Part shown: piece by piece, positions 14,620 through 40,039 of the stretch
How the letters are laid out: each line of letters opens with the position of its first letter
Position numbering within the stretch: position 1 is the stretch's first letter
Source of the DNA: Pseudomonadota bacterium
GTDB taxonomy: Bacteria > Myxococcota > JACRCW01 > JAFGSX01
Assembly: GCA_043821645.1 (NCBI GenBank)
Contig: JBDRCO010000072.1
Coordinates: forward strand, 79,962-143,961
Reading direction: 5' to 3'
Length of the DNA stretch: 64,000 bases
Translations under genes and position numbers: made by a program
The notes under the pieces: generated by a model
Seen by the model: only the letters and a program-made list of their open reading frames with translations
Database searches by the model: none
What the model was told of the DNA's origin: nothing

Positions 14620-14631
14620 CGACACAACACG

Positions 14632-16512: not shown

Positions 16513-16557
16513 GGGGCCGCGGGCTGGTAGTCTCTGGGTGAGGGAGAGAATGCATCC

Positions 16558-21906: not shown

Positions 21907-22002
21907 TGCGACCCGGTCCAGGTTGCCTGTATCGTAGCCTGCCTGTTCAGGTGCGCAAAACTGCAGGTGGCGTGTCGTCCACGGAACCGGGAAGCATCGC
22001 TC

Positions 22003-25138: not shown

Positions 25139-27019
25139 ATGCCACGCCAGCGCCACAGATGCGTGTTTTCGCGATACCGGACCAGGGCCGGTGCACTGTT
25201 CCTGTGCCTGACCCTGGCGTGTGAGCACACACCAATCAAACCGGACGAGACCAGCACCTTGACCCGGAGGTCGGCAAAGGACACGTCCCTGGCGACGCTG
25301 CCTGCCGACGAGGTTCGATTCATCTCCTCCGAGGCTTACTACCACTTCTTGCAGGGACAGCTTGCGGCCGATGCTGGGCAGTGTGAGCGCGCGATCGAGC
25401 ATTATCGAGAGGCCCTGTCCTTCGATCCGGACTCGGCACACCTGCACGTGCTCTGTGGCCGCTGCCTGCTTCGACTCGGACGCCTGGACGACAGCCTGCG
25501 CGAGGCCAGACGCGCCGTGGCACTCGATCCGTCGGGTGCCGATGCCTCCCTGCTGCTGGCCCGCGGCCTGATGCTCGCGCGGGATCTGCCGCAGGCCGCG
25601 CAGGTGCTCAAACGCGCCGCCGAGGCACACCCGGAGACCACGAGTCTCGTCGAACTGCAGGCGGAGATTGCCCTGGACCGGGGTCAGGACGAGTACGCGC
25701 TGCAGCTGATGCAGCGGCTCGCGACCCACGACCCCTCGGATCCGCGCCCAACCCTTGCTCTCGGCTTGTTGTTGCTGCGCCAGACCCGCTGGGAACTCGC
25801 GGCCCAGGCCCTGGAGCAGACACTGCAACGCGACCCCGATTCCCTCGACGCCATGGACGCCCTGACCCGAGCCTACGAGCACCTGGACCGCCGCGAAGAC
25901 GCCGCACGGGTGGCTGCACGCCGTCTCGATCTGACCCCGGACGACCGGGATGCCATCTATTCCTTCATGCGCCTGCAGGCGCGGACAGGTCAGCTGGGTC
26001 CCGCACAGGTGCTGATGCAGCGCTGGCACGACGAGGAAGGGAGCGCGGAGCTTTGGGTGGCGGCGGCCCAGGGACTGGCGGACGGAGGCGCCGACGCCAG
26101 CGCGGTCACGGTTCTCGACGAGATCCTGGCACGCGAACCGGATCTGGACCTGGCCCTGTTTACCGCAGGAAGCCTGCATGCGCGACACGGCCGCCTGAAA
26201 CGCGCCGATACCCTCCTGCGCCGCCTCGAGCCCGGTTCTCCACTCTTCTCCGAAGCGCAGGTCGAGCGCAGTCGCGTGCTGTGGCGCATGGGACGCCTCC
26301 GGGAATCGCGGGAGGTCCTGGAGCAAGCCCGCACCAGCGTCCCCGACAGCCTCGAGATAAGCCTGGCTCTCGCCGATGTCCTCGCCCGCCAGCAACAGTA
26401 CGAGAGGGCCTTCGCCATTCTCGAAGAGCTCCCCGTGCCCGCCCTGGGCCGCGAACTGGTCGTGGCGGCGCGCTCGCAGCTGCTGGCCGAGATGGGTCGT
26501 GCCGACGAGAGCGTGCAGGTTGTGTCTGACCTGGTGGCCCTGCGCCCCGACGATGCCGACCTGCTGGTGCTGCTGGCCATCGCCTACGAGCGCGCCGGAC
26601 GAAAAGCCGAGAGCGAGGGTGCGGCGCGCCAGGCCCTCACTGCCATGCCGGACCATGTGGCCGCCCAGAACTTCCTGGCCTACACCCTGGCTCAGCACGG
26701 GGACAGGCTGGACGAGGCCGTAGAACTCGCCCGGAGGGCGGTGTCGACCAGTCCAGACGACGGCTACATCGTCGACACTCTGGGTTTCGTGCTGCTGCAG
26801 CAGGGAAGCGTGGCTGAGGCCAGACAGGTCTTGCTCAGGGCAAATGAACTCAGCCCCGACGAGCCAGAGATCCTCCTGCACCTGGGAGATACGGAGCGCG
26901 CTCTGGGTCAACACCACAGCGCCCTGAAACGCTACCGCCGCGCACTCCAGCTGAGCCCGCGCGAGCGAAGCGTCCGCGAGGCGGTGCAGGAGCGCTTGAC
27001 CCGAGGAGGCTCGAGGTGA
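25139..27019 (+). CDS. TPR-repeat lipoprotein
   Basis: Track ORF 24788..27019; start at MPRQRHRCVFSRYRTRAGALFLCLTLAC (ATG 25139); more than 12 TPR-like units across 620 aa. Confidence 0.6.
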   Translation: MPRQRHRCVFSRYRTRAGALFLCLTLACEHTPIKPDETSTLTRRSAKDTSLATLPADEVRFISSEAYYHFLQGQLAADAGQCERAIEHYREALSFDPDSAHLHVLCGRCLLRLGRLDDSLREARRAVALDPSGADASLLLARGLMLARDLPQAAQVLKRAAEAHPETTSLVELQAEIALDRGQDEYALQLMQRLATHDPSDPRPTLALGLLLLRQTRWELAAQALEQTLQRDPDSLDAMDALTRAYEHLDRREDAARVAARRLDLTPDDRDAIYSFMRLQARTGQLGPAQVLMQRWHDEEGSAELWVAAAQGLADGGADASAVTVLDEILAREPDLDLALFTAGSLHARHGRLKRADTLLRRLEPGSPLFSEAQVERSRVLWRMGRLRESREVLEQARTSVPDSLEISLALADVLARQQQYERAFAILEELPVPALGRELVVAARSQLLAEMGRADESVQVVSDLVALRPDDADLLVLLAIAYERAGRKAESEGAARQALTAMPDHVAAQNFLAYTLAQHGDRLDEAVELARRAVSTSPDDGYIVDTLGFVLLQQGSVAEARQVLLRANELSPDEPEILLHLGDTERALGQHHSALKRYRRALQLSPRERSVREAVQERLTRGGSR

Positions 27020-27834
27020 CCCGGCACACTGTGCGTCGTCGGTTTCCAGCACCGCTGACCTTTGCTGTCGCGCTTGGTGTGCTCACCACGTCGGGGTGTC
27101 CGCACCCTGCCTCTCCCATCCCGCGCCTGGCCGGCGTCGAGCCGGCGGATCTGCTCGCGCGTCTGCAGGTCGCGTGGGATAAACCTCGCCAGGCGGTGGG
27201 CCTGGTCCTGCTGGAGTATCTGGCGAGCGACGGCTTTTTTCGCGGCGAGGCTGACGTGGCTGTGCAACGGCCGCGGAACCTGCGCATCGAGCTGCGGTCC
27301 TTCTTCGGGCAGCCGGCCGGGGCGCTGGTTTGTGATGGGCGACGTTACACCTTCGTGGACAACACCAGGGCGATCAGCCAGTCCGGCCCGCTGGACGACC
27401 CGGCCCTGCGTGCCCTGCTCCCCCTAGGGCTCGACGCCACGACGACGGTCTCGCTGCTCCTCGGAGGGCTCCCCGCCCTCGGACCCGGCTCCACCTCCTA
27501 CATCAAACCGCAACGACCTCCACACCTGGCGCTGCGGCACGACGACGAGGCAGGGCGCTGGCTGCTCGAGCTCGACGACAGGGCCGAGCGTCTGCTCCAG
27601 GTCGAGCACCAGGACAGCCGGGGCGATCTGCGCTTCCGGGCGCGCTTTGACGGCGCCGACTCCAGAGGCACCGTACGCTTCTCGCGCAAGGGTGAGGTCG
27701 AGGTGCGCGGGCGTGCAGGTGCCGTGAGCTGGGCTTGGAAGGACGTCGAGCTGGACGGTGAGGCCTTGCCGGCCGAGGCCTGGCAACTCAATCTACCAGG
27801 CAGCAGTTCCGACGACGACCAGAGCGAGGATTGA
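27016..27834 (+). CDS. Lipoprotein, possibly LolA/LolB-like fold
   Basis: Lipobox LGVLTTSGCP; beta-rich; start overlaps TPR stop. Fold assignment is a guess from architecture and adjacency to a TPR gene. Confidence 0.4.
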   Translation: MTRHTVRRRFPAPLTFAVALGVLTTSGCPHPASPIPRLAGVEPADLLARLQVAWDKPRQAVGLVLLEYLASDGFFRGEADVAVQRPRNLRIELRSFFGQPAGALVCDGRRYTFVDNTRAISQSGPLDDPALRALLPLGLDATTTVSLLLGGLPALGPGSTSYIKPQRPPHLALRHDDEAGRWLLELDDRAERLLQVEHQDSRGDLRFRARFDGADSRGTVRFSRKGEVEVRGRAGAVSWAWKDVELDGEALPAEAWQLNLPGSSSDDDQSED

Positions 27835-27844
27835 AGCCGTCGTC

Positions 27845-27923
27845 TTGCGACGAATTTTGCCCAGGTGCTAGCATGCGGTAGTCTGGTGTTCACACCTCGA
27901 GGTGCCGTGCGGGGACGGCACCA
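27845..27923 (+). promoter_or_regulatory. Candidate sigma-70-type promoter and 5-prime UTR hairpin upstream of first MshEN gene
   Basis: TTGCGA (27845-27850), 18-bp spacer, TAGCAT (27869-27874); then perfect inverted repeat ggtgccgt-gcgggg-acggcacc (27901-27922) 16 nt before the ATG at 27939. Confidence 0.25.
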
Positions 27924-27938
27924 GGTATAGGTTTGTCG

Positions 27939-28712
27939 ATGGATCGACGCATCCGGTTGGGCGAATTACTGCTGCGTGCGGGGCTGATCACCGAGATGCA
28001 GCTCAAGGCCGCCCTCGCGGAGCAGAAGAAGTGGGGAGGACGGCTGGGCACTATCCTCGTCAACATGAATTTCATCTCAGAGGATATCCTGGTCAAGGGC
28101 CTGGCACGCTTGCTCGAAGTGCCCCGGGCGGACTTCGAGAACATGAACGTGCCCGACGTGGTCCTGCAGCGCTTCGACCCCACCGACTGCCAGACCCGTG
28201 GCTACCTCCCGGTGCAGTACAGCCACGCAGAGAAGAAGCTCACCGTGGCATTCGTCGACGTCAACGATCTCGCCCTCGTCGACGAGCTGCGGTTCAAGCA
28301 CGGCCTCAACATTCAGCCCGCCATCACCGGCGAGCACGCCCTGCAGGCCTCGTTGCGCAGTCTTTTTTACAGCGAGGCGCTGGACGCGAGTGTCACCGGC
28401 CAGGAGCCTGGGCTCAAGCTCATCGACAGTCGCGGCGGGACCCTGGTCAAGAACCGCGCGGAGATCTTTGGCAACGAGCCTCCGCCGGCGCCGGTGGCCA
28501 CCACGGGGGTTGAGCGTGCACCCGCCGGTGTGGCCGCGGCCCTGCCGCCCCCCCCGGTGGGCGGGATCCCCGCAGGACTGCTCAACGAGCTCGAGATCGC
28601 GCAGCGGCGCCAGTCCAGAGCCATCAAGACCGTCCTGGAGCTCCTGATCGAGAAGGGAGTGATCTCTCGCGAGGAGTTCGTCGCCAGCGTCAACAAGCGC
28701 AGCGACAGTTAG
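27939..28712 (+). CDS. MshEN (T2SS GspE N-terminal) domain protein, predicted c-di-GMP receptor
   Basis: N-terminal RLGELLLRAGLITEMQLKAALAEQ fits the 24-residue MshEN motif RLGxx(L/I)(L/I)xxG(L/I)(L/I)xxxxLxxxLxxQ; followed by GGRLGTILV...ISEDILVKGLARLL second motif and remainder of a GspE_N fold; Pro/Ala-rich linker and short C-terminal helix. Confidence 0.65.
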   Translation: MDRRIRLGELLLRAGLITEMQLKAALAEQKKWGGRLGTILVNMNFISEDILVKGLARLLEVPRADFENMNVPDVVLQRFDPTDCQTRGYLPVQYSHAEKKLTVAFVDVNDLALVDELRFKHGLNIQPAITGEHALQASLRSLFYSEALDASVTGQEPGLKLIDSRGGTLVKNRAEIFGNEPPPAPVATTGVERAPAGVAAALPPPPVGGIPAGLLNELEIAQRRQSRAIKTVLELLIEKGVISREEFVASVNKRSDS

Positions 28713-28767
28713 GAGACTCAAACGGGCCGCTCGTCGATGACACGGCGGTGCGCACCCGGAGCGACTC

Positions 28768-31700
28768 ATGGCGCAGCGGAAACGTCTCGGCGACTACCTC
28801 ATCGAGGCTGGCATCATCGACCAGTTCCAGCTGCAGTCTGCGCTGGGGCATCAGAGGCAGTGGGGTGGCAAGCTCGGCCGGATCCTGGTCGAGAATCGCT
28901 TCGTCAAGGAAGACGTGATGGTGCGCGCGCTGTCCGAGCTGCTCCGCATCGATGCCGTCGAACTCTCCTTGATGACCATCCACGCCCGGGTCATCGAGCT
29001 GGTGCCCGTGGACATGGCCGAGCGCTTCGGGCTGATCCCGGTGGCACTCAAGCGCGAGAAAGCAGGCGAGTTCGTCTACATCGCCATGAGCGATCCCACC
29101 AATCTCGAGGCCGTCGACGCCATCCAGTTCAAGACCGGCAAGAAGGTCAGGTCGATGATCGCGGGGGACAGCGCGATCGATCGCGCCATCCGCCACTACT
29201 ATTACGGAGAGACCCCCCGCGAGACAGCCAGCACACCGGCCGGACAGGTCCAGTTCTCGGGCCGCGAGATCGCGCTGTCGCCTACCCATACGCCGCCTAC
29301 CCAGGCAGCGGTGCAGGCCCCTGCGGCGGCGGGCCACCCGGCGCTCGTGGTCCCTCCTCCGGCGACCTCGCAAGGTGCCATGCCGACGCCCCCTGTTCAT
29401 CCTTTCGCGGGGCAGCCCCAGCCAGCGCTCGCTCTCCCGGACGACGACGACGACATTCCTCTGATCACGGGCACTCCGGCGGGACCAGCGACGGCAGATG
29501 ACTGGTTCTTGCCTGGTGCACCCGCTCCGGCACAGGCACTCGCAACGGCTGTTTCAGCCCCACCTGTACCTGCGACGCCCGCAGTTCCCCCAGCGCTTCC
29601 CGTCGGGCCGGCCCCGCAGCAGCAGGCACCGGTGATCCTGGATGCGCGAGAATTGACGGCCGTGAATCCGCCCGAGGCGCCATTGCCGAACGCAGCGAGC
29701 GTGCTCTCTCCTTCTCAGGTGCCTCCCCCGACGCCAGTGTCGGCCTCCTCGAGTCTTTTTGGCCCGGCCGGGGGCCTCCTGGGGGGTGAGGATGCTGGAC
29801 CGGGTTTGTCGGCGCCGCGGCAGGATGTGGCATTCGGAACGCTGGAACTCCCGACACCGGGTGCTGGGACGGCTGCGACGAGACCGCCGGCGGCGAGGAC
29901 TCCGCCTGTGCAACCCGCAACCGCAGGTCCGGCCCCTGCAGGTCTGGGGCACGTCGAACCGCCGGACGCTGCCGGCACTCCAGCGGTCCTGGACAGCAAT
30001 CTTCTGCAACCCATCAAGGAACCTGCAGTCGCCAACGCTGTGCTGGGTGAGATGGAGTTTGCTGCCCCTGAAAGCCCGCCGAGCGCATCCACCGCACCGG
30101 GGCTGGAGCCTGGTGTGATCCCGGATCGATTCCCGGCGTCAGCGCCACTTCCGGAGCATCTTCTCGCCGCCTCGGGAATGGCATCCTTCGATCTGGGGCC
30201 CGGTGACGACGATCCGCTCGAATTGGACCTCCCGGGCACACCTGTCGCCACGCCGGGGCCTGCCACCTCCACCTTGACGGTGGCTCCGAACTATGAGGTT
30301 GACCTCGGACCCGAGTCCGCTGCGATTCCCCTCGACGAGGCGACATCTCCGGCCCCGCACTCCAGATCCCCTGTGTCCGACGACGGCAGTGCTGCGGCCA
30401 TGCCCGGGGCGGTCCTCGCCGCGTCGGGACTGGCAGACTTCGAACTCGACGAGGATGGCAGCAGCATCGAGCTCGACTTCGACACCCCGACCCCAGACGA
30501 CGCGCAGTCCGCGACCCCCGCGGATCCTCTGGCGAGCATGCTTCCTGTACAGCACGCGAGCGATGAGCCCCTCGAGAGCCGCACCGAGCCCGAGAGCCCT
30601 GGGGTTGACGACAGCCTGAGTTTCGTCCCCCTCGCTCCTCCCCAGCGTGTCTCCGCCGCGGCCGCCCAAGCTGCGACCATCACCCCGAGTATACCGGTGC
30701 AGGAGAACTCCTCGGCCGCCGAGACAGAGGCAGCGGTCACGGCGGACCCTGTCGACGTGCCGCCCCCGAGCGGCAGGGACCCGTCCGGGTTGGAGCTGGT
30801 CCCTCCGGTGTCCACGGCCTTCTCCTTCGAAGACCTGGATCGGCCCCCCGCCGACGCGGTTCCCCTCGGCACCGGCCCCGACCTCGAGGTGGTTCAAGCC
30901 GAGGAGATTAAGCGGCTGGACGCTCCGAGCCACAGTCCTCAGCTGGAGACGATCCCAGCCCAGGCTGACGATTCACCGGACGCCTCTCTGCGGGAGAAGA
31001 CAGAGACCCCAGCGGCGGTCGAAGATCCGCCCCTGCCAGACCTCCCGATGGAGGTCTTCAGCGATGTCGTCGACGTGGACGCACCGCCAGTGCTGGTCAC
31101 CCCTGCACGTCTGGCGGATCCCGCGGTCGAGACCCCAGCCCCGCCGCTGCCAGAGCGCACAACCGCTCCGGAGGTGGAAGGAGCACAGGCACCTCGACGC
31201 CCGCTGCCGCCAGACCCTGTGGCGGAGGCCTCGCTGGTCGCACTCGAGGACGGAGCCAGCGACGATCTCAGCGACCTCGACTTCTCGCTCGACATCGAGG
31301 ACCCACCTCCACCCCTGGCTGCGCGTGTGCCGAAAGAGCTGCAGGCCACCGAGGAACCCGCGGTACACGAAGGGGCCGCGTCCTCCGAGCAAGCACCTCC
31401 ACTCGAACTCAGCCCCACCACCCCGGCACTCATGACCGGGGGCAGCCCGGATATCGAACCGGGACAGGGCGTGAGCGACGATCTTTTGATCCCCGAAGTG
31501 CCTGCGCAGGACCTGGCCGAGGACACCGAGGACAGCACCGTCACCGATGGTGACGAACACGCGACGATGCACGATCCCGCGTCTGATACCCAGGCACCCC
31601 AGGAGCAAAGCCCGATGTCCGGCCTGGAGCGCACGATCGAAGACGCAGCGCCACAGGACACGGAACCAGCCAGCCCAGGCGTCTCCGCTCCACCCAGCGC

Positions 31701-33006
31701 ACTCACTCCCGTCGACACCCAGACCATGGATCTGGCCCAGGGGGCCTTTGACCCGTCGAACTGGAGTCTGGATGCCTTCCCCGAATCGCTCCCAGCAGCA
31801 TCGGTGGCAGCCCCTGCACCGATCGAGGACAAATTCGCCGAGCCTGCCGGCGCGATGCCGGGCCCGGAGGATCAGGACTTCGAATCCATCGTCGACTTCT
31901 CGGAGTCAGACTTTCCGAGCGAGGCCCAGAGTCAGGACGCCGTGCTGGGAGAGGAGGATGAGGACGTCGATTCCATCATCGATTTCAAGGAATCGGACTC
32001 CCCGCGCGAGGTCCAGGGTCCGGAGACCGCGCCGGGACCGGAAGCGGACGAGTTCGTGTCCATCCTTGACTTCTCGGAGTCGGACTCCCCGCGCGAGGCC
32101 CAGAGTCCGGAGCCCAGTGCTCCCGTCGCTGACGCTCCAGCCTCCGATGGTCCGATGCCGGCGACGATCGGCCGCGTGGAAGGTGAACCGAACGCGGCTT
32201 CCGTCTCCGATGATGAAGAAGCCTCGGACCTGGACCTGGGCGAGGATCTGCCAAACTCCGAGCCCATCTCGCTGCTACCTCCACCACCCAACTTCTCCTC
32301 GGCCTCCGCCCTGCTCTCCGCACTGGACCAGGGAGAGGATCTCCCCGACCTCGAGCAGCCAGACGCCTGGATAGATGCACCGGCGGCACCGATCGCGCGG
32401 GACCCGTCCGAGGCCTCCCTGGCCCGGTTCCACGACGACGCCGACCCGAGCGATGCGCTCGACCTCCCATTTGACGCGGAGCAGGCACCCTCGCCCGCTC
32501 CCAGTGCCACGACAGTCCTGGATGAGCCGCCATCCTCCAGCCACCCGATCGAGGATCTGAGCTCGGCCCTCGACGTGGCTTTCCCGGACCTCACCCTCGA
32601 TCCCCCGACGGAAGACAGCGTGCCACCGTCTCTCCCGGCAGCTGGGAGTCGGCTGCCAGAGGTCGCCCTGGACGCGCTCGGGGATGACATCGACGCGGTC
32701 GCGACGGAATTTCAGCTCGACCCACCGGCGAGCGAGCCCGCGATGACCCTGTCTGGATCTGACGTCGCGGTGCTACCCGAACTCCAGCTCGAGGGCCCGG
32801 AGCTGGCAGACGAATCCTTGACGGCCTCAGCGTCAGGGCCAGCCACCGAGAAGACGACGACACATCCGGTCCTGGCACCCGATGTGGAGGCTCTGCTCGA
32901 CAATATCGATGCCGCCAAGATGCCCGCGGTCCTCAAGCTGCTGCTGGAAAAGGGTCTGCTCTCCCTCGAGGACATCGAGGCGACCCTGGGCAAGAAGAAG
33001 GACTGA
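28768..33006 (+). CDS. Giant MshEN-domain protein with about 1200-aa acidic Pro/Ala/Glu/Asp-rich low-complexity region
   Basis: N-terminal RLGDYLIEAGIIDQFQLQSALGHQ (MshEN motif) and full GspE_N-like domain (about 155 aa); then continuous low-complexity P/A/E/D/S-rich sequence to near the C-terminus, ending in a conserved-looking helix MPAVLKLLLEKGLLSLEDIEATLGKKKD. Confidence 0.65.
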   Translation: MAQRKRLGDYLIEAGIIDQFQLQSALGHQRQWGGKLGRILVENRFVKEDVMVRALSELLRIDAVELSLMTIHARVIELVPVDMAERFGLIPVALKREKAGEFVYIAMSDPTNLEAVDAIQFKTGKKVRSMIAGDSAIDRAIRHYYYGETPRETASTPAGQVQFSGREIALSPTHTPPTQAAVQAPAAAGHPALVVPPPATSQGAMPTPPVHPFAGQPQPALALPDDDDDIPLITGTPAGPATADDWFLPGAPAPAQALATAVSAPPVPATPAVPPALPVGPAPQQQAPVILDARELTAVNPPEAPLPNAASVLSPSQVPPPTPVSASSSLFGPAGGLLGGEDAGPGLSAPRQDVAFGTLELPTPGAGTAATRPPAARTPPVQPATAGPAPAGLGHVEPPDAAGTPAVLDSNLLQPIKEPAVANAVLGEMEFAAPESPPSASTAPGLEPGVIPDRFPASAPLPEHLLAASGMASFDLGPGDDDPLELDLPGTPVATPGPATSTLTVAPNYEVDLGPESAAIPLDEATSPAPHSRSPVSDDGSAAAMPGAVLAASGLADFELDEDGSSIELDFDTPTPDDAQSATPADPLASMLPVQHASDEPLESRTEPESPGVDDSLSFVPLAPPQRVSAAAAQAATITPSIPVQENSSAAETEAAVTADPVDVPPPSGRDPSGLELVPPVSTAFSFEDLDRPPADAVPLGTGPDLEVVQAEEIKRLDAPSHSPQLETIPAQADDSPDASLREKTETPAAVEDPPLPDLPMEVFSDVVDVDAPPVLVTPARLADPAVETPAPPLPERTTAPEVEGAQAPRRPLPPDPVAEASLVALEDGASDDLSDLDFSLDIEDPPPPLAARVPKELQATEEPAVHEGAASSEQAPPLELSPTTPALMTGGSPDIEPGQGVSDDLLIPEVPAQDLAEDTEDSTVTDGDEHATMHDPASDTQAPQEQSPMSGLERTIEDAAPQDTEPASPGVSAPPSALTPVDTQTMDLAQGAFDPSNWSLDAFPESLPAASVAAPAPIEDKFAEPAGAMPGPEDQDFESIVDFSESDFPSEAQSQDAVLGEEDEDVDSIIDFKESDSPREVQGPETAPGPEADEFVSILDFSESDSPREAQSPEPSAPVADAPASDGPMPATIGRVEGEPNAASVSDDEEASDLDLGEDLPNSEPISLLPPPPNFSSASALLSALDQGEDLPDLEQPDAWIDAPAAPIARDPSEASLARFHDDADPSDALDLPFDAEQAPSPAPSATTVLDEPPSSSHPIEDLSSALDVAFPDLTLDPPTEDSVPPSLPAAGSRLPEVALDALGDDIDAVATEFQLDPPASEPAMTLSGSDVAVLPELQLEGPELADESLTASASGPATEKTTTHPVLAPDVEALLDNIDAAKMPAVLKLLLEKGLLSLEDIEATLGKKKD
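31876..32115 (+). repeat. Three tandem about 75-bp coding repeats inside the giant gene
   Basis: Peptide units ESIVDFSESDFPSEAQSQD / DSIIDFKESDSPREVQGPE / VSILDFSESDSPREAQSPE; DNA units share ...gacttctcggagtc(a/g)gact(tt/cc)cc...gaggcccagagtc.... Confidence 0.5.
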
Positions 33007-33040
33007 TCCCCCACGCGGCACCATCGTCGGGACGCTCGGC

Positions 33041-33409
33041 TCAGTCTTCTCCGCGCGCTGCCACGATGGTGTCAATGAGCTGTCGGCTCTCGTCGTCGAG
33101 GCTGAGGAACTCGATACCCATGCCTGGCACCTGATCGGCACTCGCCTGGGCGCTGGCCCACACGACGCGACCGATGCCCTCGATGAGAGGCATCCCATCT
33201 GCCAGGGCAAAGCGCAGGTAGATGGTCGAGCCGATCGCATGCGGCGAATCGGTGCGCAGGAACAGTCCCCCGGCCGACAGGTCGGTCGCGATCTCTTCCA
33301 TGAAGGCTTCGAGGGTCTCGAAGCGGTGCTGAACCAGGAGGTTGAGCGGGACGCGACGGTGGCGACGCCGGTCCTTCGGATCAGACGATGCCCCATGCGG
33401 CTTTGCCAT
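33041..33409 (-). CDS. Single-domain PilZ protein, predicted c-di-GMP receptor
   Basis: C-terminal 122 codons of track ORF 33041..34276; start MAKPHG (ATG 33409); RxxxR motif (DRRRHRRV) followed about 25 aa later by DxSxxG (DLSAGG). Confidence 0.65.
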   Translation of the reverse strand: MAKPHGASSDPKDRRRHRRVPLNLLVQHRFETLEAFMEEIATDLSAGGLFLRTDSPHAIGSTIYLRFALADGMPLIEGIGRVVWASAQASADQVPGMGIEFLSLDDESRQLIDTIVAARGED

Positions 33410-33463: not shown

Positions 33464-33498
33464 GGTAAAAAAGAAGACGCTCGCGCGCCAGGTGCCGG
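33464..33498 (-). terminator. Candidate intrinsic terminator after the metallophosphoesterase-like gene
   Basis: On the minus strand a GC-rich segment (ggcgcgcgagcg) is followed by a U-rich run (ucuucuuuuuua); stem is imperfect. Confidence 0.25.
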
Positions 33499-33500
33499 GC

Positions 33501-34565
33501 TCAGGGCTGCAGGGCCGCACGCTGGGCTGCCACCTCCGGGTCATCGGGAAGCCGGGCATCGAGCTCAAGCAGCCGGTAGCGGTAGCGGGTCTTGCCACGC
33601 TGTCTCTCGAGCCAGGCGGCAGTCTCCGCCTGCTCTGCGCGCGCCTGTGCATCCTCGGGCCTGCGCACGAGTCTCTGCACCGCCAGCTCCCGGCGCTCCC
33701 GCGCGTCCTCGGTGACGGCCCCGCCACGCCAGGTGGCGTCACCCCGAACAGCCCACACCTCGAACTGGACGAGGTAGTGACCTTGCTGGCCGGCGGCCAC
33801 CACGGGCACGCTGCTGCCGTCCCTCTCCGGGTGCTGGCCAGGCCGGGCCTCCTCGCGAGGCAGAAAAGAAACCAGCCCACGCTGGGCGACCAGCACCACC
33901 GACACCTGTGGCAACCCCTGCGCCAGCCTGGCCGCGGCGTCGGAGGACATGCGTGCCACCAGCACCACATGATCACCGGGCCGGGCCACCTTCGCCAGCA
34001 CCCCGCGCAGCGCAGGCAGGGCGGGTGTCGGGTCCAGGCCCGTCGCGGGTGGCCAGTTGGCCGGATCCAGCGCACTGACGACGACGATACGCTGCCCACC
34101 GAGCTGCCGCACCACGTGGCTCTGGTAGGCCGGTCGGCGATCCGCGACCCGCACCAGGTTGCTGGCCACCACGGGGAGCTTGTACGCGCGCACCAGCTCG
34201 TCGAAGCGCGCAAGCCCCAGGCCGAGGTCACCCGGCCCGGGTACCAGCGCATCCAGCTCAGCCCTGTGGAGAGCACTTGCGATCACACGTGCCCGCGCCA
34301 GCGCAAGGACGCCATTGTCCCCTGGCGACGCCGCCTCGTCGAAGAAGCTGTTACCACCCTCGATGTGGAGCACGGGTCCGCGCTCCCGCAGTGCCCGGAT
34401 CGTTCCCACCTGCCTGGCCAGACCGCCAAGCGGACCACTGGGTCAGCCACAGGGGTCGAGGGCCCCCTCCCGGTCGTGGGCATAAAGCACCGTGAAGCTC
34501 ACGGGCTCGTCGTCGAGGTTGGCGGCGCAGAGCAGGACAGACGCCACCACGGCCAGGGCGTGCAT
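33501..34565 (-). pseudogene. Metallophosphoesterase/5-prime-nucleotidase-like gene interrupted by in-frame TGA, catalytic motifs degenerate
   Basis: Signal peptide + FTVLYAHDREGALDPCG (ORF 34443..34706, start ATG 34565) is in the same frame as ORF 33501..34409 but separated by TGA at 34443-34445; downstream sequence continues ...PSGPLGGLARQVGTIRAL...; expected GDxxD/GNHE metal ligands are replaced (LHIEGGNSFF, PGPGDLGLG). Confidence 0.4.
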
Positions 34566-34572
34566 GCTTCGC

Positions 34573-35889
34573 TCAGCCCGTGATCTCGGCGTTGCCTGGG
34601 CGGATGGCCTGCGGCCCGAAGGGGCAGCGTTGGAGCCGGATGTGCTCCTCGAACTCGTGCCGGAACTTCTTGACGAAGGCTCGGGCCGGGATCGCGGCCG
34701 CGTCACCCAGCGGGCAGATGGTGTTGCCGAGGATGTTGGCGGCGACCTCGTCGAACAGCGTGATGTCCTCGCTGCTTCCGTGGCCCTGCTCGACCCGGGT
34801 CGCCATCTTGGCGATCCAGTGCGTGCCCTCGCGGCAGGGCGTGCACTGCCCGCAGGACTCGTGGGCGTAGAAGCGCATCAGCCGGGCGGTCAGGCGCACC
34901 GTGCAGGTACTCTCGTCGAGGACCGCGGCACAGCCTGTGCCCAGCATGGTGCCCGCCTTCGACATGGCATCAAAAGTGAGAGGCACATCGATCTCGTCTG
35001 GAAGCAGCACCGGTGTCGACGAACCGCCGGGGATCACACCCTTGAGCGCCTTGCCATCGCGCAGACCCCCGCCATGCTCGAAGATCAGTTCCTTGAGCGA
35101 GATGCCCTGGGGGAGTTCCCACAGACCGGGCCTCGCCACGTGGCCAGAGGCGCCGTACAGCTTGGTGCCCACACCGCCGTTGACGCCCAGGCTCTTCCAG
35201 GCGTCGGCACCACGCTCGAGGATGTGCGGCACCTGGGCCAGGGTCTCGACGTTATTGACGATGGTGGGCTGGCCAAACACGCCGACCACTGCGGGAAACG
35301 GAGGCTTGAGACGCGGCTTGCCCGGTTTCCCTTCGATGGACTCGATGAGCGCGGTCTCCTCGCCACAGACGTAAGCGCCTGCACCACGATGCACGAAGAC
35401 GTCGAGGTCGAAACCTTTACCCAGGATGTTCTTGCCCAGATAGTGCGCGTCCACGGCCTCGGCGATGGCCTGCTCCAGGCGTCGGGCGATGGCGTGAAAC
35501 TCGCCGCGAATATAGATGTAGGCCGTATGGGCGCCGATGGCATGGCAGGCGATCGCGATGCCCTCGAGCATCATGTGGGGATCGCGGTCCATGATGTAAC
35601 GATCTTTGTATGTGCCCGGCTCACCCTCGTCAGCGTTGATGCACAGGTAGCGGGGACCGGGCTTGTCCTTGGGCACGAAGCTCCACTTCATGCCCGTCGA
35701 GAAGCCGGCGCCGCCCATGCCGCGCAGTCCTGACTTCTTGACCTCCTCGATGAGGTCGCCCGGAGCCATGGCCAGGGCCTTTGCCAGCGACGTGTAGCCG
35801 CCACCCTGCAGGTAGGTCTTGAGCGTGTGGCTCTCGGGCTTGCCCCAGTTGCGCGACAGCAGTCGCTCGCCCATTGCGTACCTCGTCAT
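34573..35889 (-). CDS. nuoF: NADH-quinone oxidoreductase subunit F (51 kDa flavoprotein)
   Basis: Full-length NuoF-like sequence: YLCINADEGEPGTYKDRYIM, GAGAYVCGEETALIESIEGK, 4Fe-4S ligands ESCGQCTPCREG. Confidence 0.8.
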   Translation of the reverse strand: MTRYAMGERLLSRNWGKPESHTLKTYLQGGGYTSLAKALAMAPGDLIEEVKKSGLRGMGGAGFSTGMKWSFVPKDKPGPRYLCINADEGEPGTYKDRYIMDRDPHMMLEGIAIACHAIGAHTAYIYIRGEFHAIARRLEQAIAEAVDAHYLGKNILGKGFDLDVFVHRGAGAYVCGEETALIESIEGKPGKPRLKPPFPAVVGVFGQPTIVNNVETLAQVPHILERGADAWKSLGVNGGVGTKLYGASGHVARPGLWELPQGISLKELIFEHGGGLRDGKALKGVIPGGSSTPVLLPDEIDVPLTFDAMSKAGTMLGTGCAAVLDESTCTVRLTARLMRFYAHESCGQCTPCREGTHWIAKMATRVEQGHGSSEDITLFDEVAANILGNTICPLGDAAAIPARAFVKKFRHEFEEHIRLQRCPFGPQAIRPGNAEITG

Positions 35890-35916
35890 CGCGGCTGTCG
35901 GTTCGCCCGGTCCGCG

Positions 35917-36384
35917 TCAGTCGGCGGCCCGCAGCACCGCCGCCACCTTCTCAGGGGTCATGTTCTCGTGAAAATCGCCGTCCACCTGCAGGGCAGGCGC
36001 CGTGCCACAGGAGCCCAGGCACTCGACCTCGTGAACGGTGAAACGGCCGTCGGCGGTGGTCTCTCCCGGCTTGACGCCGAGTTCGTGGCACACGCTGTCG
36101 AGCAGTTCCTGACCGCCGGTGAGGTGGCAGGACAGGTTGGTGCAGATCTCGACCAGGTGCTTTCCGACGGGGTGCTTGTGGTACATGGTGTACCAGGTCG
36201 CCACCTCGCGCACCCGGATCTCGTCGAGCTCGAGCAGCGCCGCCACCTCGCGCACGCCCTCGTCGTCGACCAGCTCGCGCTCACGCTGCACCACGTAAAG
36301 CGCGGGCAGGGTGGCTGCCGCCCGATCCGGGTAGCGTGTCTTGAGGGATGCGATCTCCTTCTTGGATGCCTCGCTCAGAGCCAT
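35917..36384 (-). CDS. nuoE: NADH-quinone oxidoreductase subunit E (24 kDa, 2Fe-2S)
   Basis: Thioredoxin-like 2Fe-2S pattern CTNLSCHLTGG ... ECLGSCGTAP; immediately upstream of nuoF on the same strand. Confidence 0.75.
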   Translation of the reverse strand: MALSEASKKEIASLKTRYPDRAAATLPALYVVQRERELVDDEGVREVAALLELDEIRVREVATWYTMYHKHPVGKHLVEICTNLSCHLTGGQELLDSVCHELGVKPGETTADGRFTVHEVECLGSCGTAPALQVDGDFHENMTPEKVAAVLRAAD

Positions 36385-37969: not shown

Positions 37970-40039
37970 TTGCTTCGCACGGAGGCGATGACGGATCGCA
38001 TGCCAACCCTGTCCTGCATCCCACGCAGCCGCGGCCTCGCCCGCGCCGCAACCCGTGTCGGGCTGGTGCTGGCCTGCGCGGTGTTCGGGGCGCCCGCCGT
38101 GGCGCAGGAGGCCGATCTGTTCGGGCTCGGCGAGGACGAGGGCGACGACGTGGCCAGTGTCCCCATGGTCATCGGTTTGCGCCCCGCCAGCGCCACCGTG
38201 CTCACCGGCGAGGATCTGCTGCGCCAGGGCTACCGCACCCTGGGCGATGCCCTGGCCGATGTGGTGGGCATCGACCTGCAGCGCACCACCCAGGAAAGGC
38301 GCTACGGCCTGCGCGGTATCCCCGACGGCATCCTGCTGGTCATCGACGGAGTGCCGACCCTGGTCGATGGCGAGCGCGACGTGCTCGACGTGGACGAGGG
38401 CCTGGATCTCAACGATGTGGAGCGGGTCGAGGTGATCCGCGGCCCGTCCTCGGCGGTCCACGGCGTGGCCTCGCTCTCCGGTGTGGTGCAGGTGACCACG
38501 CGTCGCCCCGGGCTGACCAGTGCACGGCTCCGCCTGGGCACCACCCACCTGGGCGAGCGCGAGGTCAGCGCCGACGGCACGGTGCGCTATGACGTGGCCG
38601 CCCTGCGCGCGTCGGTGCTCCACCGCGAAGGGCCCAATGGTGTGTGGCGCCTGGAGAACGTCCCCACACGCTTCATCCGGGTGGGGCGCGCGGTGGTTCC
38701 CTCGACCAAGGAGAACACCGAGATCATTCCCCAGGACGACAGCACCACCCACCTCCGGCTGACCGGCAGCATTGGAGCACTGCAGCTCGACGGGCGTTTC
38801 AGCCGCAGCGACGTGCACACTCCCATCTCCAGCTTCAGCCATGGCCTGCTGTCGACGGGCCCCCAGCAGCGGCAGCTGCGCGAACGCCAGCGCATGCAGC
38901 TGAGCTGGAACCGCCACCTGGGCCCACTGTTCGTCGAGACCTCCGCCTACGGCGCGCGCAACCTGCGCACGGACCTGATCGTGCTGTACCCGTCCCGCGG
39001 GCTGTTTCCGACGGGGGGCAGTGTCACCGTCGACAGTGAGGCCGACACTGCGGGCCTGTTGCTCACCGCGGGCGTGCCTGTGCTGCGCGACCACCGGCTG
39101 CTGCTGACCTGCTTCGGCGACCTGACCCGACAGTGGGCCGTGACCCGCGCGGTGGACCCCGAAGAGGAACGCGTGTACCCGCGACTGGTCGAGTTCGACG
39201 AGCTCACCGGCACGGCCACCGCAGCCTTCGAGTACCAGGGTGACTTCGGAGCGGGCTGGCATCTGACGGCGGGCGCCGCGGTGGAGTGGCGCACCGGCTA
39301 TGGCGCAGCCCTGGTGCCCCGGGCTTCCCTGAGCTACCTGCCGCTGTCCTGGCTCGCCCTGCGCGCATCGTACGCCGAGGGCTCGCGCACCCCGGACCGC
39401 TACGACCTGGCCTTGCTCACCCAGGCCGTGATCGCTGGCCGCGCCATCGGCGCCGGTGTCAATCCCGACCTGCAGCCCGAGCACGCGCGCAGCCTCGAGC
39501 TGGCGTTGCGTCTGGAGCCGTCGGCTCAGCTTCACGCCGAGCTTGACCTGTTTGCCTCACGCCACGAGAACGCCATCGAGCCAGAGATCGTGGGTGCGCG
39601 CATGGTGCCGCAGAACCTGCCTCCCCGGCTGGTCCTCGGCGGCGAGCTGTCGACGGAGATCGAGGCCATCCCGACCCTGCTGCACCTGGGTGCGGGTGTG
39701 GCTCTGGCACGGACCGTCGATGGACCCGCGCTGGAAAACCGCTTGCTGCTGGTGACCGCCACGGCCGAGGTGACACCCCTGACCGGTATCGCGCTGGGTG
39801 CGCGCGGCCGCGCCGGCTGGCGAGAGCAGAGCGATGCCGCATCGGGAACCTCGGGGAACGCCGAGATCTTTGGCTCGTACCGCGCCCTCGACGAGCGGCT
39901 GAGCTTCTCGCTGGTGCTGCGCAACGCCATCGATGGGCAGGACGATTCCCCGGACGTCGCCGTGCTCACCGGGACCTCTGACGTGGCCATCCCCAGCCGC
40001 GGCCGCGTGCTGTTCGTCGCCATCGAGGGCCGCCTGTGA
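37970..40039 (+). CDS. TonB-dependent outer-membrane receptor
   Basis: Signal peptide (VGLVLACAVFGAPAVAQ), plug-domain motifs (VIGLRPASATVLTGEDL, ERVEVIRGPSSAVHGVASLSGVVQVTT), long beta-barrel. Start may be 37988 or 38000. Confidence 0.65.
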   Translation: MLRTEAMTDRMPTLSCIPRSRGLARAATRVGLVLACAVFGAPAVAQEADLFGLGEDEGDDVASVPMVIGLRPASATVLTGEDLLRQGYRTLGDALADVVGIDLQRTTQERRYGLRGIPDGILLVIDGVPTLVDGERDVLDVDEGLDLNDVERVEVIRGPSSAVHGVASLSGVVQVTTRRPGLTSARLRLGTTHLGEREVSADGTVRYDVAALRASVLHREGPNGVWRLENVPTRFIRVGRAVVPSTKENTEIIPQDDSTTHLRLTGSIGALQLDGRFSRSDVHTPISSFSHGLLSTGPQQRQLRERQRMQLSWNRHLGPLFVETSAYGARNLRTDLIVLYPSRGLFPTGGSVTVDSEADTAGLLLTAGVPVLRDHRLLLTCFGDLTRQWAVTRAVDPEEERVYPRLVEFDELTGTATAAFEYQGDFGAGWHLTAGAAVEWRTGYGAALVPRASLSYLPLSWLALRASYAEGSRTPDRYDLALLTQAVIAGRAIGAGVNPDLQPEHARSLELALRLEPSAQLHAELDLFASRHENAIEPEIVGARMVPQNLPPRLVLGGELSTEIEAIPTLLHLGAGVALARTVDGPALENRLLLVTATAEVTPLTGIALGARGRAGWREQSDAASGTSGNAEIFGSYRALDERLSFSLVLRNAIDGQDDSPDVAVLTGTSDVAIPSRGRVLFVAIEGRL

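What the first reader, a model, noticed from the sequence alone, without database searches (positions are those of the whole stretch)
27845..33409. Three predicted c-di-GMP receptors in one locus: two adjacent MshEN-domain genes and a convergent PilZ gene
Both + strand genes open with a near-perfect copy of the published 24-residue MshEN c-di-GMP-binding motif (RLGELLLRAGLITEMQLKAALAEQ and RLGDYLIEAGIIDQFQLQSALGHQ) but lack the GspE/PilB ATPase domain that normally follows it. The 122-aa protein on the opposite strand has both PilZ signatures (RRRHRR and DLSAGG). Stand-alone MshEN proteins next to a PilZ protein suggest a dedicated second-messenger readout module of unknown output.
Basis: partly seen in the sequence, partly recalled or inferred. 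Interest (0 to 1): 0.8.

Follow-up and report, generated by a model that had tools for sequence, protein, structure and literature searches.

The report
Paired ATPase-less MshEN receptor genes
Two adjacent genes encode proteins with the c-di-GMP-sensing head of pilus and secretion motors but no motor; they are this organism's copies of a gene pair conserved across myxobacteria (MXAN_4667/MXAN_4666 in Myxococcus xanthus), and the PilZ gene next to them is a real but only patchily conserved neighbour.

Summary
Gene A (27939-28712, 257 aa) and gene B (28768-33006, 1412 aa) each open with a perfect 24-residue MshEN motif I, a 5-residue spacer and an imperfect motif II. Both pass the Pfam MshEN and NCBIfam c-di-GMP-motif models, and neither has an ATPase domain. 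The convergent 122-aa protein is a canonical PilZ of the TIGR02266 family.

This is not a new kind of system. A and B are orthologues of M. xanthus MXAN_4667 and MXAN_4666, catalogued as MshEN proteins in 2016 and 2022 but never studied. The tandem pair is conserved in 74 of 77 Myxococcota species loci. Both proteins have the same plan: an MshEN domain, a proline-rich acidic disordered linker (about 55 aa in A, about 1215 aa in B), and a C-terminal helical hairpin that resembles a third, degenerate motif copy.

In most relatives the pair heads a gene string: two ABC ATPases, DUF2085, an ECF sigma/anti-sigma pair, then the Tad-like Kil cluster 2. The window lineage has lost that downstream part.

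PilZ adjacency in this form occurs only in the window's narrow clade (four loci). Other PilZ genes flank the pair in two or three other arrangements. A three-receptor module is therefore possible but unproven.

The parts
27939..28712 (+). Gene A: 257-aa ATPase-less MshEN protein, orthologue of M. xanthus MXAN_4667. An alternative TTG start lies at 27933.
   Evidence: (100% identical to NCBI MAG protein P0001)
27954..28112 (+). A: 53-residue c-di-GMP-binding region. Motif I is 27954-28025 (perfect), the spacer KKWGG is 28026-28040, and motif II is 28041-28112 (Asn at position 10, Leu at position 24).
   Evidence: NF053729 74.5 bits
28116..28376 (+). A: MshEN_C alpha/beta subdomain, equivalent to the N1 platform-docking domain of T2SS ATPases.
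   Evidence: Pfam PF05157 residues 62-148. The AF2 model has pLDDT above 90 here, and Foldseek matches 5HTL with TM 0.77
28572..28703 (+). A: conserved C-terminal helical hairpin (…TVLELLIEKGVISREEFVASV…), reached through a roughly 55-aa low-confidence proline-rich linker.
   Evidence: Invariant L236 and G240 in 29 homologues; AF2 helices 212-238 and 244-255; hhalign to motif I gives probability 79%
28768..33006 (+). Gene B: 1412-aa ATPase-less MshEN protein, orthologue of M. xanthus MXAN_4666. A GGAG lies 7 nt upstream of the ATG, and the gene starts 55 nt after the stop of A.
28783..28941 (+). B: 53-residue c-di-GMP-binding region. Motif I is 28783-28854 (perfect), the spacer RQWGG is 28855-28869, and motif II is 28870-28941 (Arg at position 10, Leu at position 24).
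   Evidence: NF053729 65.7 bits on the whole protein and 71 bits on the isolated fragment
28945..29211 (+). B: MshEN_C subdomain.
   Evidence: Pfam PF05157 residues 60-148, 1.4e-16. Residues 6-151 are the only long block conserved among B orthologues
29245..32880 (+). B: disordered linker of about 1215 aa. Composition: Pro 16.8%, Ala 15.6%, Asp+Glu 18%, Lys+Arg 2.6%, net charge about -186. It contains three 29-aa peptide repeats (nt 31888-32145).
   Evidence: The sequence is not conserved even in the closest relatives, but the composition is conserved across the family
32881..33003 (+). B: C-terminal helical hairpin (…AVLKLLLEKGLLSLEDIEATL…), homologous to the hairpin of A.
33041..33409 (-). 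122-aa single-domain PilZ protein (TIGR02266 family), convergent with B with 34 nt between the stop codons. RxxxR is at 33356-33370 and DxSxxG at 33266-33283.
   Evidence: (R15, R19, G47, G48 invariant)
27016..27834 (+). DUF4292-like lipoprotein (lipobox LTTSGC). It is a frequent upstream neighbour of the pair.
   Evidence: tblastn to Pfam-confirmed DUF4292 genes in L001 and L085. Adjacent in 26 of 75 loci and within 8 kb in 47 of 60
25139..27019 (+). TPR lipoprotein (lipobox LTLAC). Its stop overlaps the start of the DUF4292-like gene.
33501..34409 (-). Context only: an UshA-like phosphoesterase (weak match). It lies upstream of PilZ on the same strand and is preceded by nuoF (34573-35889) and nuoE (35917-36384).
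   Evidence: The same string occurs in L008, L088 and L089

Best explanation
The locus holds this uncultured myxobacterium's orthologues of the M. xanthus MXAN_4667/MXAN_4666 pair. [quoted passage not shown]

Shown by computation:
- Each protein consists of a four-helix c-di-GMP-binding bundle (motif I, spacer, motif II), an MshEN_C docking subdomain, a proline-rich acidic disordered linker and one C-terminal helical hairpin.
- The pair is conserved across Myxococcota.

Inferred:
- Each head binds one monomeric c-di-GMP molecule. Affinity is probably lowered because the motif II glutamine is a leucine in both window proteins.
- The output is protein-protein interaction, not catalysis. The MshEN_C surface would dock a partner.
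- The two single hairpins, each a degenerate copy of the 24-residue unit, may pair A with B into an MshEN_N-like four-helix bundle.
- The very long acidic linker of B would act as a flexible tether.
- Synteny in relatives points to the likely ancestral client: the adjacent ABC-ATPase/DUF2085/ECF-sigma module and the Tad-like Kil cluster 2. The Kil motor KilF is annotated with only an FHA and a P-loop NTPase domain, so it apparently lacks an MshEN head of its own.

In the window lineage that downstream block is gone. The PilZ gene is a separate transcription unit and at most an optional partner.
For: - Domain identity. The AF2 model of A (pLDDT 82) matches MshE 5HTL (TM 0.77) and the PilF GSPII domains.
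- Orthology: the N-termini printed for MXAN_4667 and MXAN_4666 in the Wang 2016 supplement match the Myxococcus sp. locus L085 A and B. Gene lengths (756 and 1017 nt) and gene order match Kuzmich 2022 'Operon 24'.
- Pair conservation: B follows A in 74 of 77 loci. A and B form separate orthologous groups, 80 of 81 each.
- Binding residues are conserved across the family. [RK]-L-G, L17 and L21 are nearly invariant. Gln24 is present in 75 of 75 (A, motif I), 70 of 75 (A, motif II) and 69 of 81 (B, motif II).
- Profile scores: window A (73 bits) and B (71 bits) score above the experimentally proven binders PilF GSPII-B (63) and GSPII-C (62).
- Hairpin: conserved in A and B. It aligns in register with motif I (hhalign probability 79%, E 1.5e-5). 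HMMER also matches some B C-termini to the motif region.
- Linker: composition is conserved but sequence is not, and length ranges from about 140 to about 1550 aa.
- Synteny over 80 species loci: ABC ATPases in 49 of 67, DUF2085 in 47 of 58, ECF sigma in 45 of 58, RcpC+TadB+TadC within 8 kb in 18 of 31.
- MXAN_4661, which lies five genes from MXAN_4666, is the last gene of Kil cluster 2.
Against: - No binding data exist for any member of this family.
- Motif II in both window proteins lacks the turn Gly and the terminal Gln. The equivalent PilF Q218E change costs 77-fold in affinity.
- A good motif is not sufficient. PilF GSPII-A scores 55 bits, above the model cut-off, yet does not bind, even after its consensus residues were restored.
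- Pairing of the hairpins is pure inference. No complex could be modelled.
- The window contains no Tad, pilus, T2SS, ABC-ATPase or ECF genes next to the pair, and no GGDEF, EAL or HD-GYP gene among about 36 ORFs scanned. The client in this organism is therefore unknown.
- The Kil link rests on gene order only, and several genes lie in between.
Confidence: 0.6

Rival explanations
1. One reading: A, B and the PilZ protein form one dedicated three-receptor c-di-GMP module. The PilZ protein would dock onto an MshEN domain as Xanthomonas PilZ docks onto the PilB N-domain.
For: - The tail-to-tail arrangement is kept in four loci of the window clade.
- Different PilZ genes flank the pair elsewhere. 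A 220-aa tandem PilZ lies directly upstream of A in 7 of 75 loci. It is inverted in L030, and another lies about 2 kb upstream in L059.
- All PilZ-HMM hits in the species loci (about 1.4 Mb) lie within about 2 kb of the pair.
- The window PilZ's only PDB sequence hits and its top 11 structural hits are the Xanthomonas PilZ, which was crystallised bound to the MshEN-like PilB N-domain.
- The Trp needed for that contact (W69) aligns with W83 of the window PilZ.
Against: - PilZ sits downstream of the pair in only 1 of 67 species loci.
- The gene is on the opposite strand, at the end of a nuoEF-phosphoesterase string.
- A 47%-identical PilZ orthologue lies elsewhere with no MshEN gene nearby.
- M. 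xanthus has 24 PilZ genes, none near MXAN_4666/4667.
- The aligned Trp is His in the syntenic relatives P0129 and P0132.
- The resemblance to Xanthomonas PilZ may be generic to the TIGR02266 family.
- PilZ genes are abundant in this phylum, the PilZ HMM used was narrow, and the number of independent events (3-4) is small.
Confidence: 0.25
2. A and B are degenerate MshEN domains that no longer bind c-di-GMP. They would act only as scaffolds, or as decoys that compete with MshEN-bearing ATPases for platform proteins.
For: - Both motif II copies fail the relaxed published pattern at positions 10 and 24.
- Leu at motif II position 24 is rare in the family: 4 of 75 A and 2 of 81 B.
- PilF GSPII-A shows that a high-scoring domain can be a non-binder.
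- In one clade the B heads are clearly degenerate (31.5 bits, below the cut-off).
Against: - Motif I is perfect in both proteins.
- The Gly at position 3 of both motifs is kept. G11L and G40I abolish the c-di-GMP thermal shift in VcMshE.
- All Leu contacts are kept.
- Losing one Gln in PilF GSPII-B still leaves a KD of 460 nM.
- Asn, Ser or Lys at position 10 is the family norm in A, so it is tolerated by the fold.
Confidence: 0.25
3. The pair works with the upstream envelope genes (the TPR lipoprotein and the DUF4292 LolB-like lipoprotein), for example by coupling c-di-GMP to outer-membrane lipoprotein or envelope assembly.
For: TPR-DUF4292-A-B is the only part of the neighbourhood retained in the window. 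It recurs widely: DUF4292 is adjacent in 26 of 75 loci and within 8 kb in 47 of 60.
Against: - A and B have no signal peptide, whereas the two upstream proteins are lipoproteins.
- In many Myxococcaceae about 3.5 kb is inserted between DUF4292 and A.
- In M. xanthus a transcription start maps 5 nt upstream of MXAN_4667, which is called the first gene of its operon.
Confidence: 0.1

Closest known systems
M. xanthus MXAN_4667 and MXAN_4666 (MshEN-domain proteins listed by Wang et al. 2016 and Kuzmich et al. 2022)
   Same: Positional and sequence orthologues. They share the tandem order, the MshEN head, a proline-rich linker and the C-terminal hairpin, and a DUF4292 gene lies upstream.
   Different: - Window B is 1412 aa, against 338 aa in M. 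xanthus.
- The window lacks the downstream ABC ATPases, DUF2085, ECF sigma and Kil cluster 2, and has a convergent PilZ gene instead.
- Both window proteins carry Leu at the last position of motif II.
- The M. xanthus proteins are themselves uncharacterised. No paper text in the searched library names them.
V. cholerae MshE / MshEN domain (PDB 5HTL) and T. thermophilus PilF GSPII-B and GSPII-C
   Same: Two 24-residue motifs with a 5-residue spacer, and the four-helix bundle plus alpha/beta subdomain fold.
   Different: No C-terminal ATPase. Motif II lacks the turn Gly and the terminal Gln. There is an extra disordered linker and a C-terminal hairpin.
Xanthomonas citri PilB-PilZ-FimX complex (PDB 7LKM)
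   Same: A small PilZ protein with a C-terminal helix, together with an MshEN-fold domain. The models of A and of the PilZ protein both hit chains of this complex.
   Different: [quoted passage not shown] Here all three proteins carry binding motifs.
- No FimX-like GGDEF-EAL gene and no ATPase are present.
- The interaction is untested.
E. coli NfrB and other MshEN fusions (REC, HD-GYP, CheA, glycosyltransferase)
   Same: An MshEN head used as a c-di-GMP input module outside secretion ATPases. NfrB-type models match residues 5-150 of both proteins.
   Different: Those proteins carry an enzymatic or signalling output domain in the same chain. A and B have none.
TIGR02266 PilZ paralogue family of Myxococcota (for example PlpA, PixA and PixB among the 24 M. 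xanthus PilZ proteins)
   Same: A single PilZ domain with RxxxR and [D/N]xSxxG, scoring above the family cut-off.
   Different: The specific orthologue group is small: about 15 proteins at 47% identity or more. It has no studied member.

Membership tests
MshEN (c-di-GMP-binding GSPII) domain | Motif I: RLGxx(L/V/I)(L/V/I)xxG(L/V/I)(L/V/I)xxxxLxxxLxxQ | tested here: met
   Strict regex matches in A (27954) and B (28783), with none in shuffles.
MshEN (c-di-GMP-binding GSPII) domain | A second 24-residue motif after a spacer of about 5 residues | tested here: inconclusive
   It is present with a 5-residue spacer. R/K-L-G, L17 and L21 are kept, but position 10 is Asn or Arg and position 24 is Leu, so it fails the relaxed pattern. 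The whole 53-residue region still scores 66-75 bits against a cut-off of 38.
MshEN (c-di-GMP-binding GSPII) domain | Four-helix bundle plus alpha/beta MshEN_C fold | tested here: met
   For A, the AF2 model has block-mean pLDDT of 92-97 over residues 11-140 and Foldseek matches 5HTL with TM 0.77 and E 3e-9. For B the evidence is profiles only.
MshEN (c-di-GMP-binding GSPII) domain | Binds c-di-GMP | not testable with these tools
   The non-binder PilF GSPII-A also passes the profile (55 bits), so sequence cannot settle this.
GspE/PilB/MshE secretion ATPases | C-terminal T2SSE ATPase domain (Walker A/B) | tested here: not met
   No ATPase family is hit in Pfam. The NCBIfam PilB and GspE models match only residues of about 2-153 and fall far below their cut-offs.
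PilZ domain c-di-GMP receptors | RxxxR and [D/N]xSxxG motifs in a PilZ beta-barrel | tested here: met
   RRRHR is at residues 14-18 and DLSAGG at 43-48. Pfam gives 9.6e-15 and TIGR02266 gives 82.4 bits. R15, R19, G47 and G48 are invariant in 22 homologues. The AF2 model (pLDDT 81) matches PilZ structures. Binding itself was not testable.
MXAN_4667/4666-type tandem pair (Myxococcota) | A short MshEN protein followed within about 100 nt by a second MshEN protein, both with a proline-rich linker and a C-terminal hairpin | tested here: met
   The window's best hits fall in the matching A and B orthologous groups.
MXAN_4667-4662 operon / Kil cluster 2 neighbourhood | Downstream ABC ATPases, DUF2085, ECF sigma/anti-sigma and RcpC-TadB-TadC-FHA | tested here: not met
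   None of these genes is present in the 64-kb window (Pfam scans). They are present in most relatives.
PilB-PilZ-FimX type complex | PilZ bound to an MshEN-fold domain, with a FimX-like EAL partner | not testable with these tools
   There is fold resemblance only. No GGDEF-EAL gene was found among the scanned window ORFs.

The most novel reading that the evidence does not exclude
The A-B pair would be a detachable, trans-acting MshEN module. It would supply c-di-GMP control to a motor that has no MshEN head of its own, namely the Tad-like Kil predation machine or its ECF-sigma circuit. A and B would be joined through a split four-helix bundle made from their two C-terminal hairpins, and PilZ proteins would be recruited as extra inputs in some lineages, including this one.
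Probability: 0.15. Interest if true: 0.7.

Novelty: new member of a known kind. Interest (0 to 1): 0.35.

Why it matters
By itself the locus adds one more member to a catalogued but unstudied class of c-di-GMP receptor candidates. The comparative result is more useful. The MXAN_4667/4666-type pair is one of the most conserved ATPase-less MshEN units in Myxococcota. It has a defined three-part architecture. In most lineages it sits at the head of the gene string that ends in Kil cluster 2.

How Kil assembly is triggered at prey contact is an open question. The Kil papers read here mention no c-di-GMP input. The pair is therefore a concrete candidate that can be tested genetically in M. xanthus. 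It would also be a test case for how an MshEN head signals without an attached enzyme.

Tried and rejected
- Look-up of the window's own protein in the contig index failed because it is not on record. The window context was surveyed with a GC3-based ORF choice and Pfam scans instead.
- The frgA paper (PMC111401) is not held.
- The Foldseek AFDB50 library is unavailable.
- Tandem Repeats Finder found no DNA repeat in B. The three 29-aa repeats are visible at peptide level only.
- The promoter and terminator scan gave nothing above the shuffle expectation, and no terminator between the convergent B and PilZ stops.
- A loose RxxxR…DxSxxG regex used to estimate background PilZ density was too noisy to use. 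Its only yield was the L059 PilZ.
- The C-terminal hairpins match no Pfam family.
- The window's 272-aa lipoprotein does not reach the Pfam DUF4292 threshold. It is linked to that family only through homologues.
- A rejected idea: that B is a spurious long ORF of a high-GC genome. It has an in-frame conserved head and tail 4.2 kb apart, and orthologues of 1042-1109 aa show the same plan.

Full report
**What is in the window**

The region holds three genes.
- Gene A: 27939-28712, + strand, 257 aa. An alternative TTG start lies at 27933.
- Gene B: 28768-33006, + strand, 1412 aa. It starts 55 nt after A and has a GGAG 7 nt before its ATG.
- A PilZ gene: 33041-33409, - strand, 122 aa. Its stop lies 34 nt from the stop of B.

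Upstream on the + strand are a TPR lipoprotein (25139-27019) and a 272-aa lipoprotein (27016-27834). The latter is homologous to DUF4292 genes of relatives. On the - strand, upstream of PilZ, lie an UshA-like phosphoesterase, nuoF and nuoE.

Gene A is 100% identical to a hypothetical protein of an NCBI MAG labelled 'Pseudomonadota bacterium', on a 161-kb contig. All named relatives of the A family are Myxococcota or 'Deltaproteobacteria' MAGs.

**Check of the observation**

The strict published 24-residue motif occurs exactly twice in the six-frame translation of the 64-kb window. Both hits are at the N-termini of A and B. None occurred in 100 codon shuffles.

Both motifs are followed by a 5-residue spacer and a second motif. 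The second motif keeps [RK]-L-G and the leucines. It has Asn (A) or Arg (B) instead of the turn glycine, and Leu instead of the terminal glutamine.

Pfam MshEN covers the alpha/beta half of each head. NCBIfam NF053729 covers the 53-residue binding region at 74.5 and 65.7 bits against a cut-off of 38. No ATPase domain is found.

The AF2 model of A is confident over residues 1-150. It matches V. cholerae MshE bound to c-di-GMP (5HTL, TM 0.77) and the PilF GSPII domains.

The PilZ protein passes Pfam PilZ and TIGR02266. It has RRRHR and DLSAGG, with the arginines and glycines invariant in 22 homologues, and it models as a PilZ barrel with a C-terminal helix.

**How safe is the c-di-GMP prediction?**

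The same NCBIfam model was scored on proteins of known behaviour.

| Domain | Behaviour | Score (bits) |
|---|---|---|
| PilF GSPII-B | binder | 63 |
| PilF GSPII-C | binder | 62 |
| PilF GSPII-A | non-binder | 55 |
| Window A | unknown | 73 |
| Window B | unknown | 71 |

The window heads look better than proven binders. However, passing the model is not proof. GSPII-A does not bind even after its consensus residues were restored (PMC12002112).

The terminal glutamines hydrogen-bond the ribose-phosphate backbone. In PilF GSPII-B, Q218E alone weakens binding 77-fold, to 460 nM, and only the double mutant abolishes it (PMC11731258).

Across about 80 species, Gln at motif II position 24 is kept in 70 of 75 A proteins and 69 of 81 B proteins. 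The window carries Leu in both. I therefore expect binding, probably of reduced affinity, with a probability of about 0.65.

**The pair is a conserved unit, and it is already catalogued**

A search with gene A found 159 close homologues of 215-330 aa, matched end to end. A profile search of 1.84 billion representatives gave 1854 hits at E ≤ 1e-30. The top of that list is dominated by full-length matches of 200-350 aa.

A scan of one genome per species returned 278 matches, of which 80 loci were kept. They include Myxococcus, Pyxidicoccus, Cystobacter, Archangium, Hyalangium, Citreicoccus and Vitiosangium.

In 74 of 77 loci with enough sequence, A is followed within about 100 nt by a second MshEN gene. 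A and B form two separate orthologous groups, 80 of 81 each.

In Myxococcus sp. (L085) the two genes are 250 and 338 aa. The supplement of Wang et al. 2016 prints the N-termini of MXAN_4667 and MXAN_4666. These match L085 A (identical, allowing for text-extraction gaps) and L085 B. Both are listed there with PilB, in a different column from FrgA and PulE.

Kuzmich et al. 2022 list both genes among 17 MshEN genes. They place them in 'Operon 24' (MXAN_4667-4666-4665-4664-4663), with a transcription start 5 nt upstream of MXAN_4667 and mild down-regulation in development. No paper text in the searched library names either gene. ATPase-less MshEN proteins are thus a known kind, and this is a new member of it.

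**Shared anatomy of A and B**

Both proteins have the same three-part plan.

- Head: conserved across the family. Residues 6-151 form the only long conserved block of B.
- Linker: disordered, proline-rich and acidic. It is about 55 aa in A. In B it is about 1215 aa, with Pro 16.8%, Asp+Glu 18%, Lys+Arg 2.6% and net charge about -186. Its sequence is not conserved even in the closest relatives. Its composition is conserved, and its length runs from about 140 to about 1550 aa across the family.
- Hairpin: a C-terminal helical hairpin, (V/L)ELL(I/L)EKG(V/L)(I/L)S.E(E/D), conserved in both families and confidently helical in the model of A.

Profile-profile alignment puts the hairpin in register with motif I (hhalign probability 79%, E 1.5e-5). 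HMMER also aligns several B C-termini to the motif region. The hairpin lacks the Arg-Leu-Gly and Gln positions.

One such unit is half of an MshEN_N bundle. Each protein carries exactly one. My inference is that the two hairpins pair, in homo- or hetero-fashion. I could not model a complex.

A is the more conserved sensor, with G3 and Q24 of motif I invariant. B varies more and is clearly degenerate in one clade (31.5 bits).

**Neighbourhood across the phylum**

tblastn of neighbour genes against the 80 species loci shows a recurrent gene string (Pfam support). It runs as follows: a TPR-like gene, DUF4292, then either nothing or a roughly 3.5-kb insert, then A, B, two OppD/F-like ABC ATPases, DUF2085, ECF sigma, a zf-HC2 anti-sigma, and finally RcpC/CpaB, TadB, TadC and FHA proteins.

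| Feature | Loci with feature / loci with enough sequence |
|---|---|
| DUF4292 adjacent | 26 / 75 |
| DUF4292 within 8 kb | 47 / 60 |
| ABC ATPases | 49 / 67 |
| DUF2085 | 47 / 58 |
| ECF sigma | 45 / 58 |
| RcpC+TadB+TadC within 8 kb | 18 / 31 |

In M. xanthus the numbering is contiguous. MXAN_4667 is A, 4666 is B, and 4665 to 4662 follow. MXAN_4661 ('putative zinc-finger') is the last gene of Kil cluster 2. That cluster spans MXAN_4648-4661 and includes KilB (RcpC), KilG and KilH (GspF-type) and FHA proteins. [quoted passage not shown] 2021).

The Kil papers read here mention no c-di-GMP or MshEN input. A 2026 Bdellovibrio preprint notes PilZ, FHA and TPR genes near tad genes.

The window lineage keeps only TPR-DUF4292-A-B. 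Its nearest outgroups (L009, L010) still have the ABC ATPases, so the breakpoint lies just after B. No Tad, pilus, T2SS, ECF, GGDEF, EAL or HD-GYP gene was found among about 36 window ORFs scanned.

**The PilZ gene**

Close orthologues are few: about 15 proteins at 47% identity or more. The same layout, with nuoE-nuoF-phosphoesterase-PilZ converging on B-A-DUF4292-TPR, occurs in L008, L088 and L089, where A is 62-67% identical. A 47%-identical PilZ orthologue sits elsewhere, next to a histidine kinase. This particular adjacency is therefore shallow, and PilZ belongs to another transcription unit.

Three observations keep a functional link alive.

- An HMM built from the PilZ homologues found other PilZ genes beside the pair. 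A 220-aa tandem PilZ with RNHQR…NISERG (Pfam 3.3e-16) lies directly upstream of A, on the same strand, in a second clade (L016, L018, L022-24, L041, L083). There the pair is followed at once by DUF2085, a zinc-ribbon gene and RcpC-TadB-TadC-FHA. The tandem PilZ is inverted in L030, and another tandem PilZ lies about 2 kb upstream in L059.
- No PilZ hit in the species loci (about 1.4 Mb) lay far from the pair. The HMM is narrow, however, and only 3-4 events are independent.
- The window PilZ's only PDB sequence matches and its top 11 structural matches are the Xanthomonas PilZ. That protein binds the MshEN-fold N-domain of PilB (7LKM), a complex the model of A also hits.

Against the link:
- The Trp critical for that contact is His in the syntenic relatives.
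- The resemblance may be generic to the TIGR02266 family.
- M. xanthus has no PilZ gene near its pair.

I put the three-receptor module at about 0.25.

**Verdict**

The features are real, but the kind is known. The best-supported reading is a conserved pair of ATPase-less MshEN c-di-GMP receptor candidates that act through protein-protein contacts. Their client in this organism is unknown. In most relatives the likely clients are the adjacent ECF/ABC module and the Tad-like Kil apparatus.

Novelty is 'new member of a known kind'. Interest is moderate to low for this locus and somewhat higher for the family-level lead.

Noticed in passing
Loci L026-L072 and others; M. xanthus MXAN_4667 to MXAN_4648: The MshEN pair heads a co-directional gene string that ends in Kil cluster 2: two ABC ATPases, DUF2085, ECF sigma, anti-sigma, then RcpC/KilB, TadB/KilG, TadC/KilH and FHA proteins. 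The Kil and c-di-GMP papers read here do not mention this link.
   Followed up: partly
L016, L018, L022-L024, L041, L083 (about 120-830 nt upstream of A); L030; L059 3370-4152: A 220-260-aa tandem PilZ protein lies next to the pair in other clades, in three different positions or orientations. It has a degenerate N-terminal half and a canonical RxxxR / [D/N]xSxxG C-terminal half.
   Followed up: partly
window 31888-32145 (B residues 1041-1126): Three consecutive 29-aa peptide repeats (…S-I-[VIL]-D-F-x-E-S-D-x-P-x-E-[AV]-Q…) lie inside the disordered linker of B. They are not seen in orthologues, and no DNA-level tandem repeat was detected.
   Followed up: partly
window 33476-33489 (- strand): A terminator-like hairpin with a T-run lies between the UshA-like gene and the PilZ start. 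It hints that PilZ has its own promoter, but such sites are not more frequent here than in shuffles.
   Followed up: no
window 34573-36384 (- strand): nuoF and nuoE stand alone without other nuo genes. They are followed by a weakly UshA-like phosphoesterase and PilZ. This string is conserved in L008, L088 and L089.
   Followed up: no
window 37970-43825: A cluster of a TonB-dependent receptor, an ABC substrate-binding-like protein, a HAMP histidine kinase and a sigma-54 response regulator. The same genes flank the locus in relative L088.
   Followed up: no
window 14620-17301 and 20386-23061: A dCache-HAMP histidine kinase with a response regulator, and an 892-aa Ser/Thr protein kinase, lie upstream of the locus. 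This is a typical myxobacterial signalling load.
   Followed up: no
Representative search hits P0158, P0159, P0194, P0220, P0230: Proteins of 1000-1300 aa carry 4-7 tandem MshEN-like stretches and score at the top of the A-family profile search. They are multi-MshEN arrays beyond the three GSPII domains of PilF.
   Followed up: no
Clade-3 loci L001, L012, L017, L019, L020, L084: In this clade the B head has degenerate motifs (for example RLVD…, HLLRVIV; 31.5 bits, below the cut-off), while the A head stays canonical. The pair is followed directly by an ECF sigma gene.
   Followed up: partly
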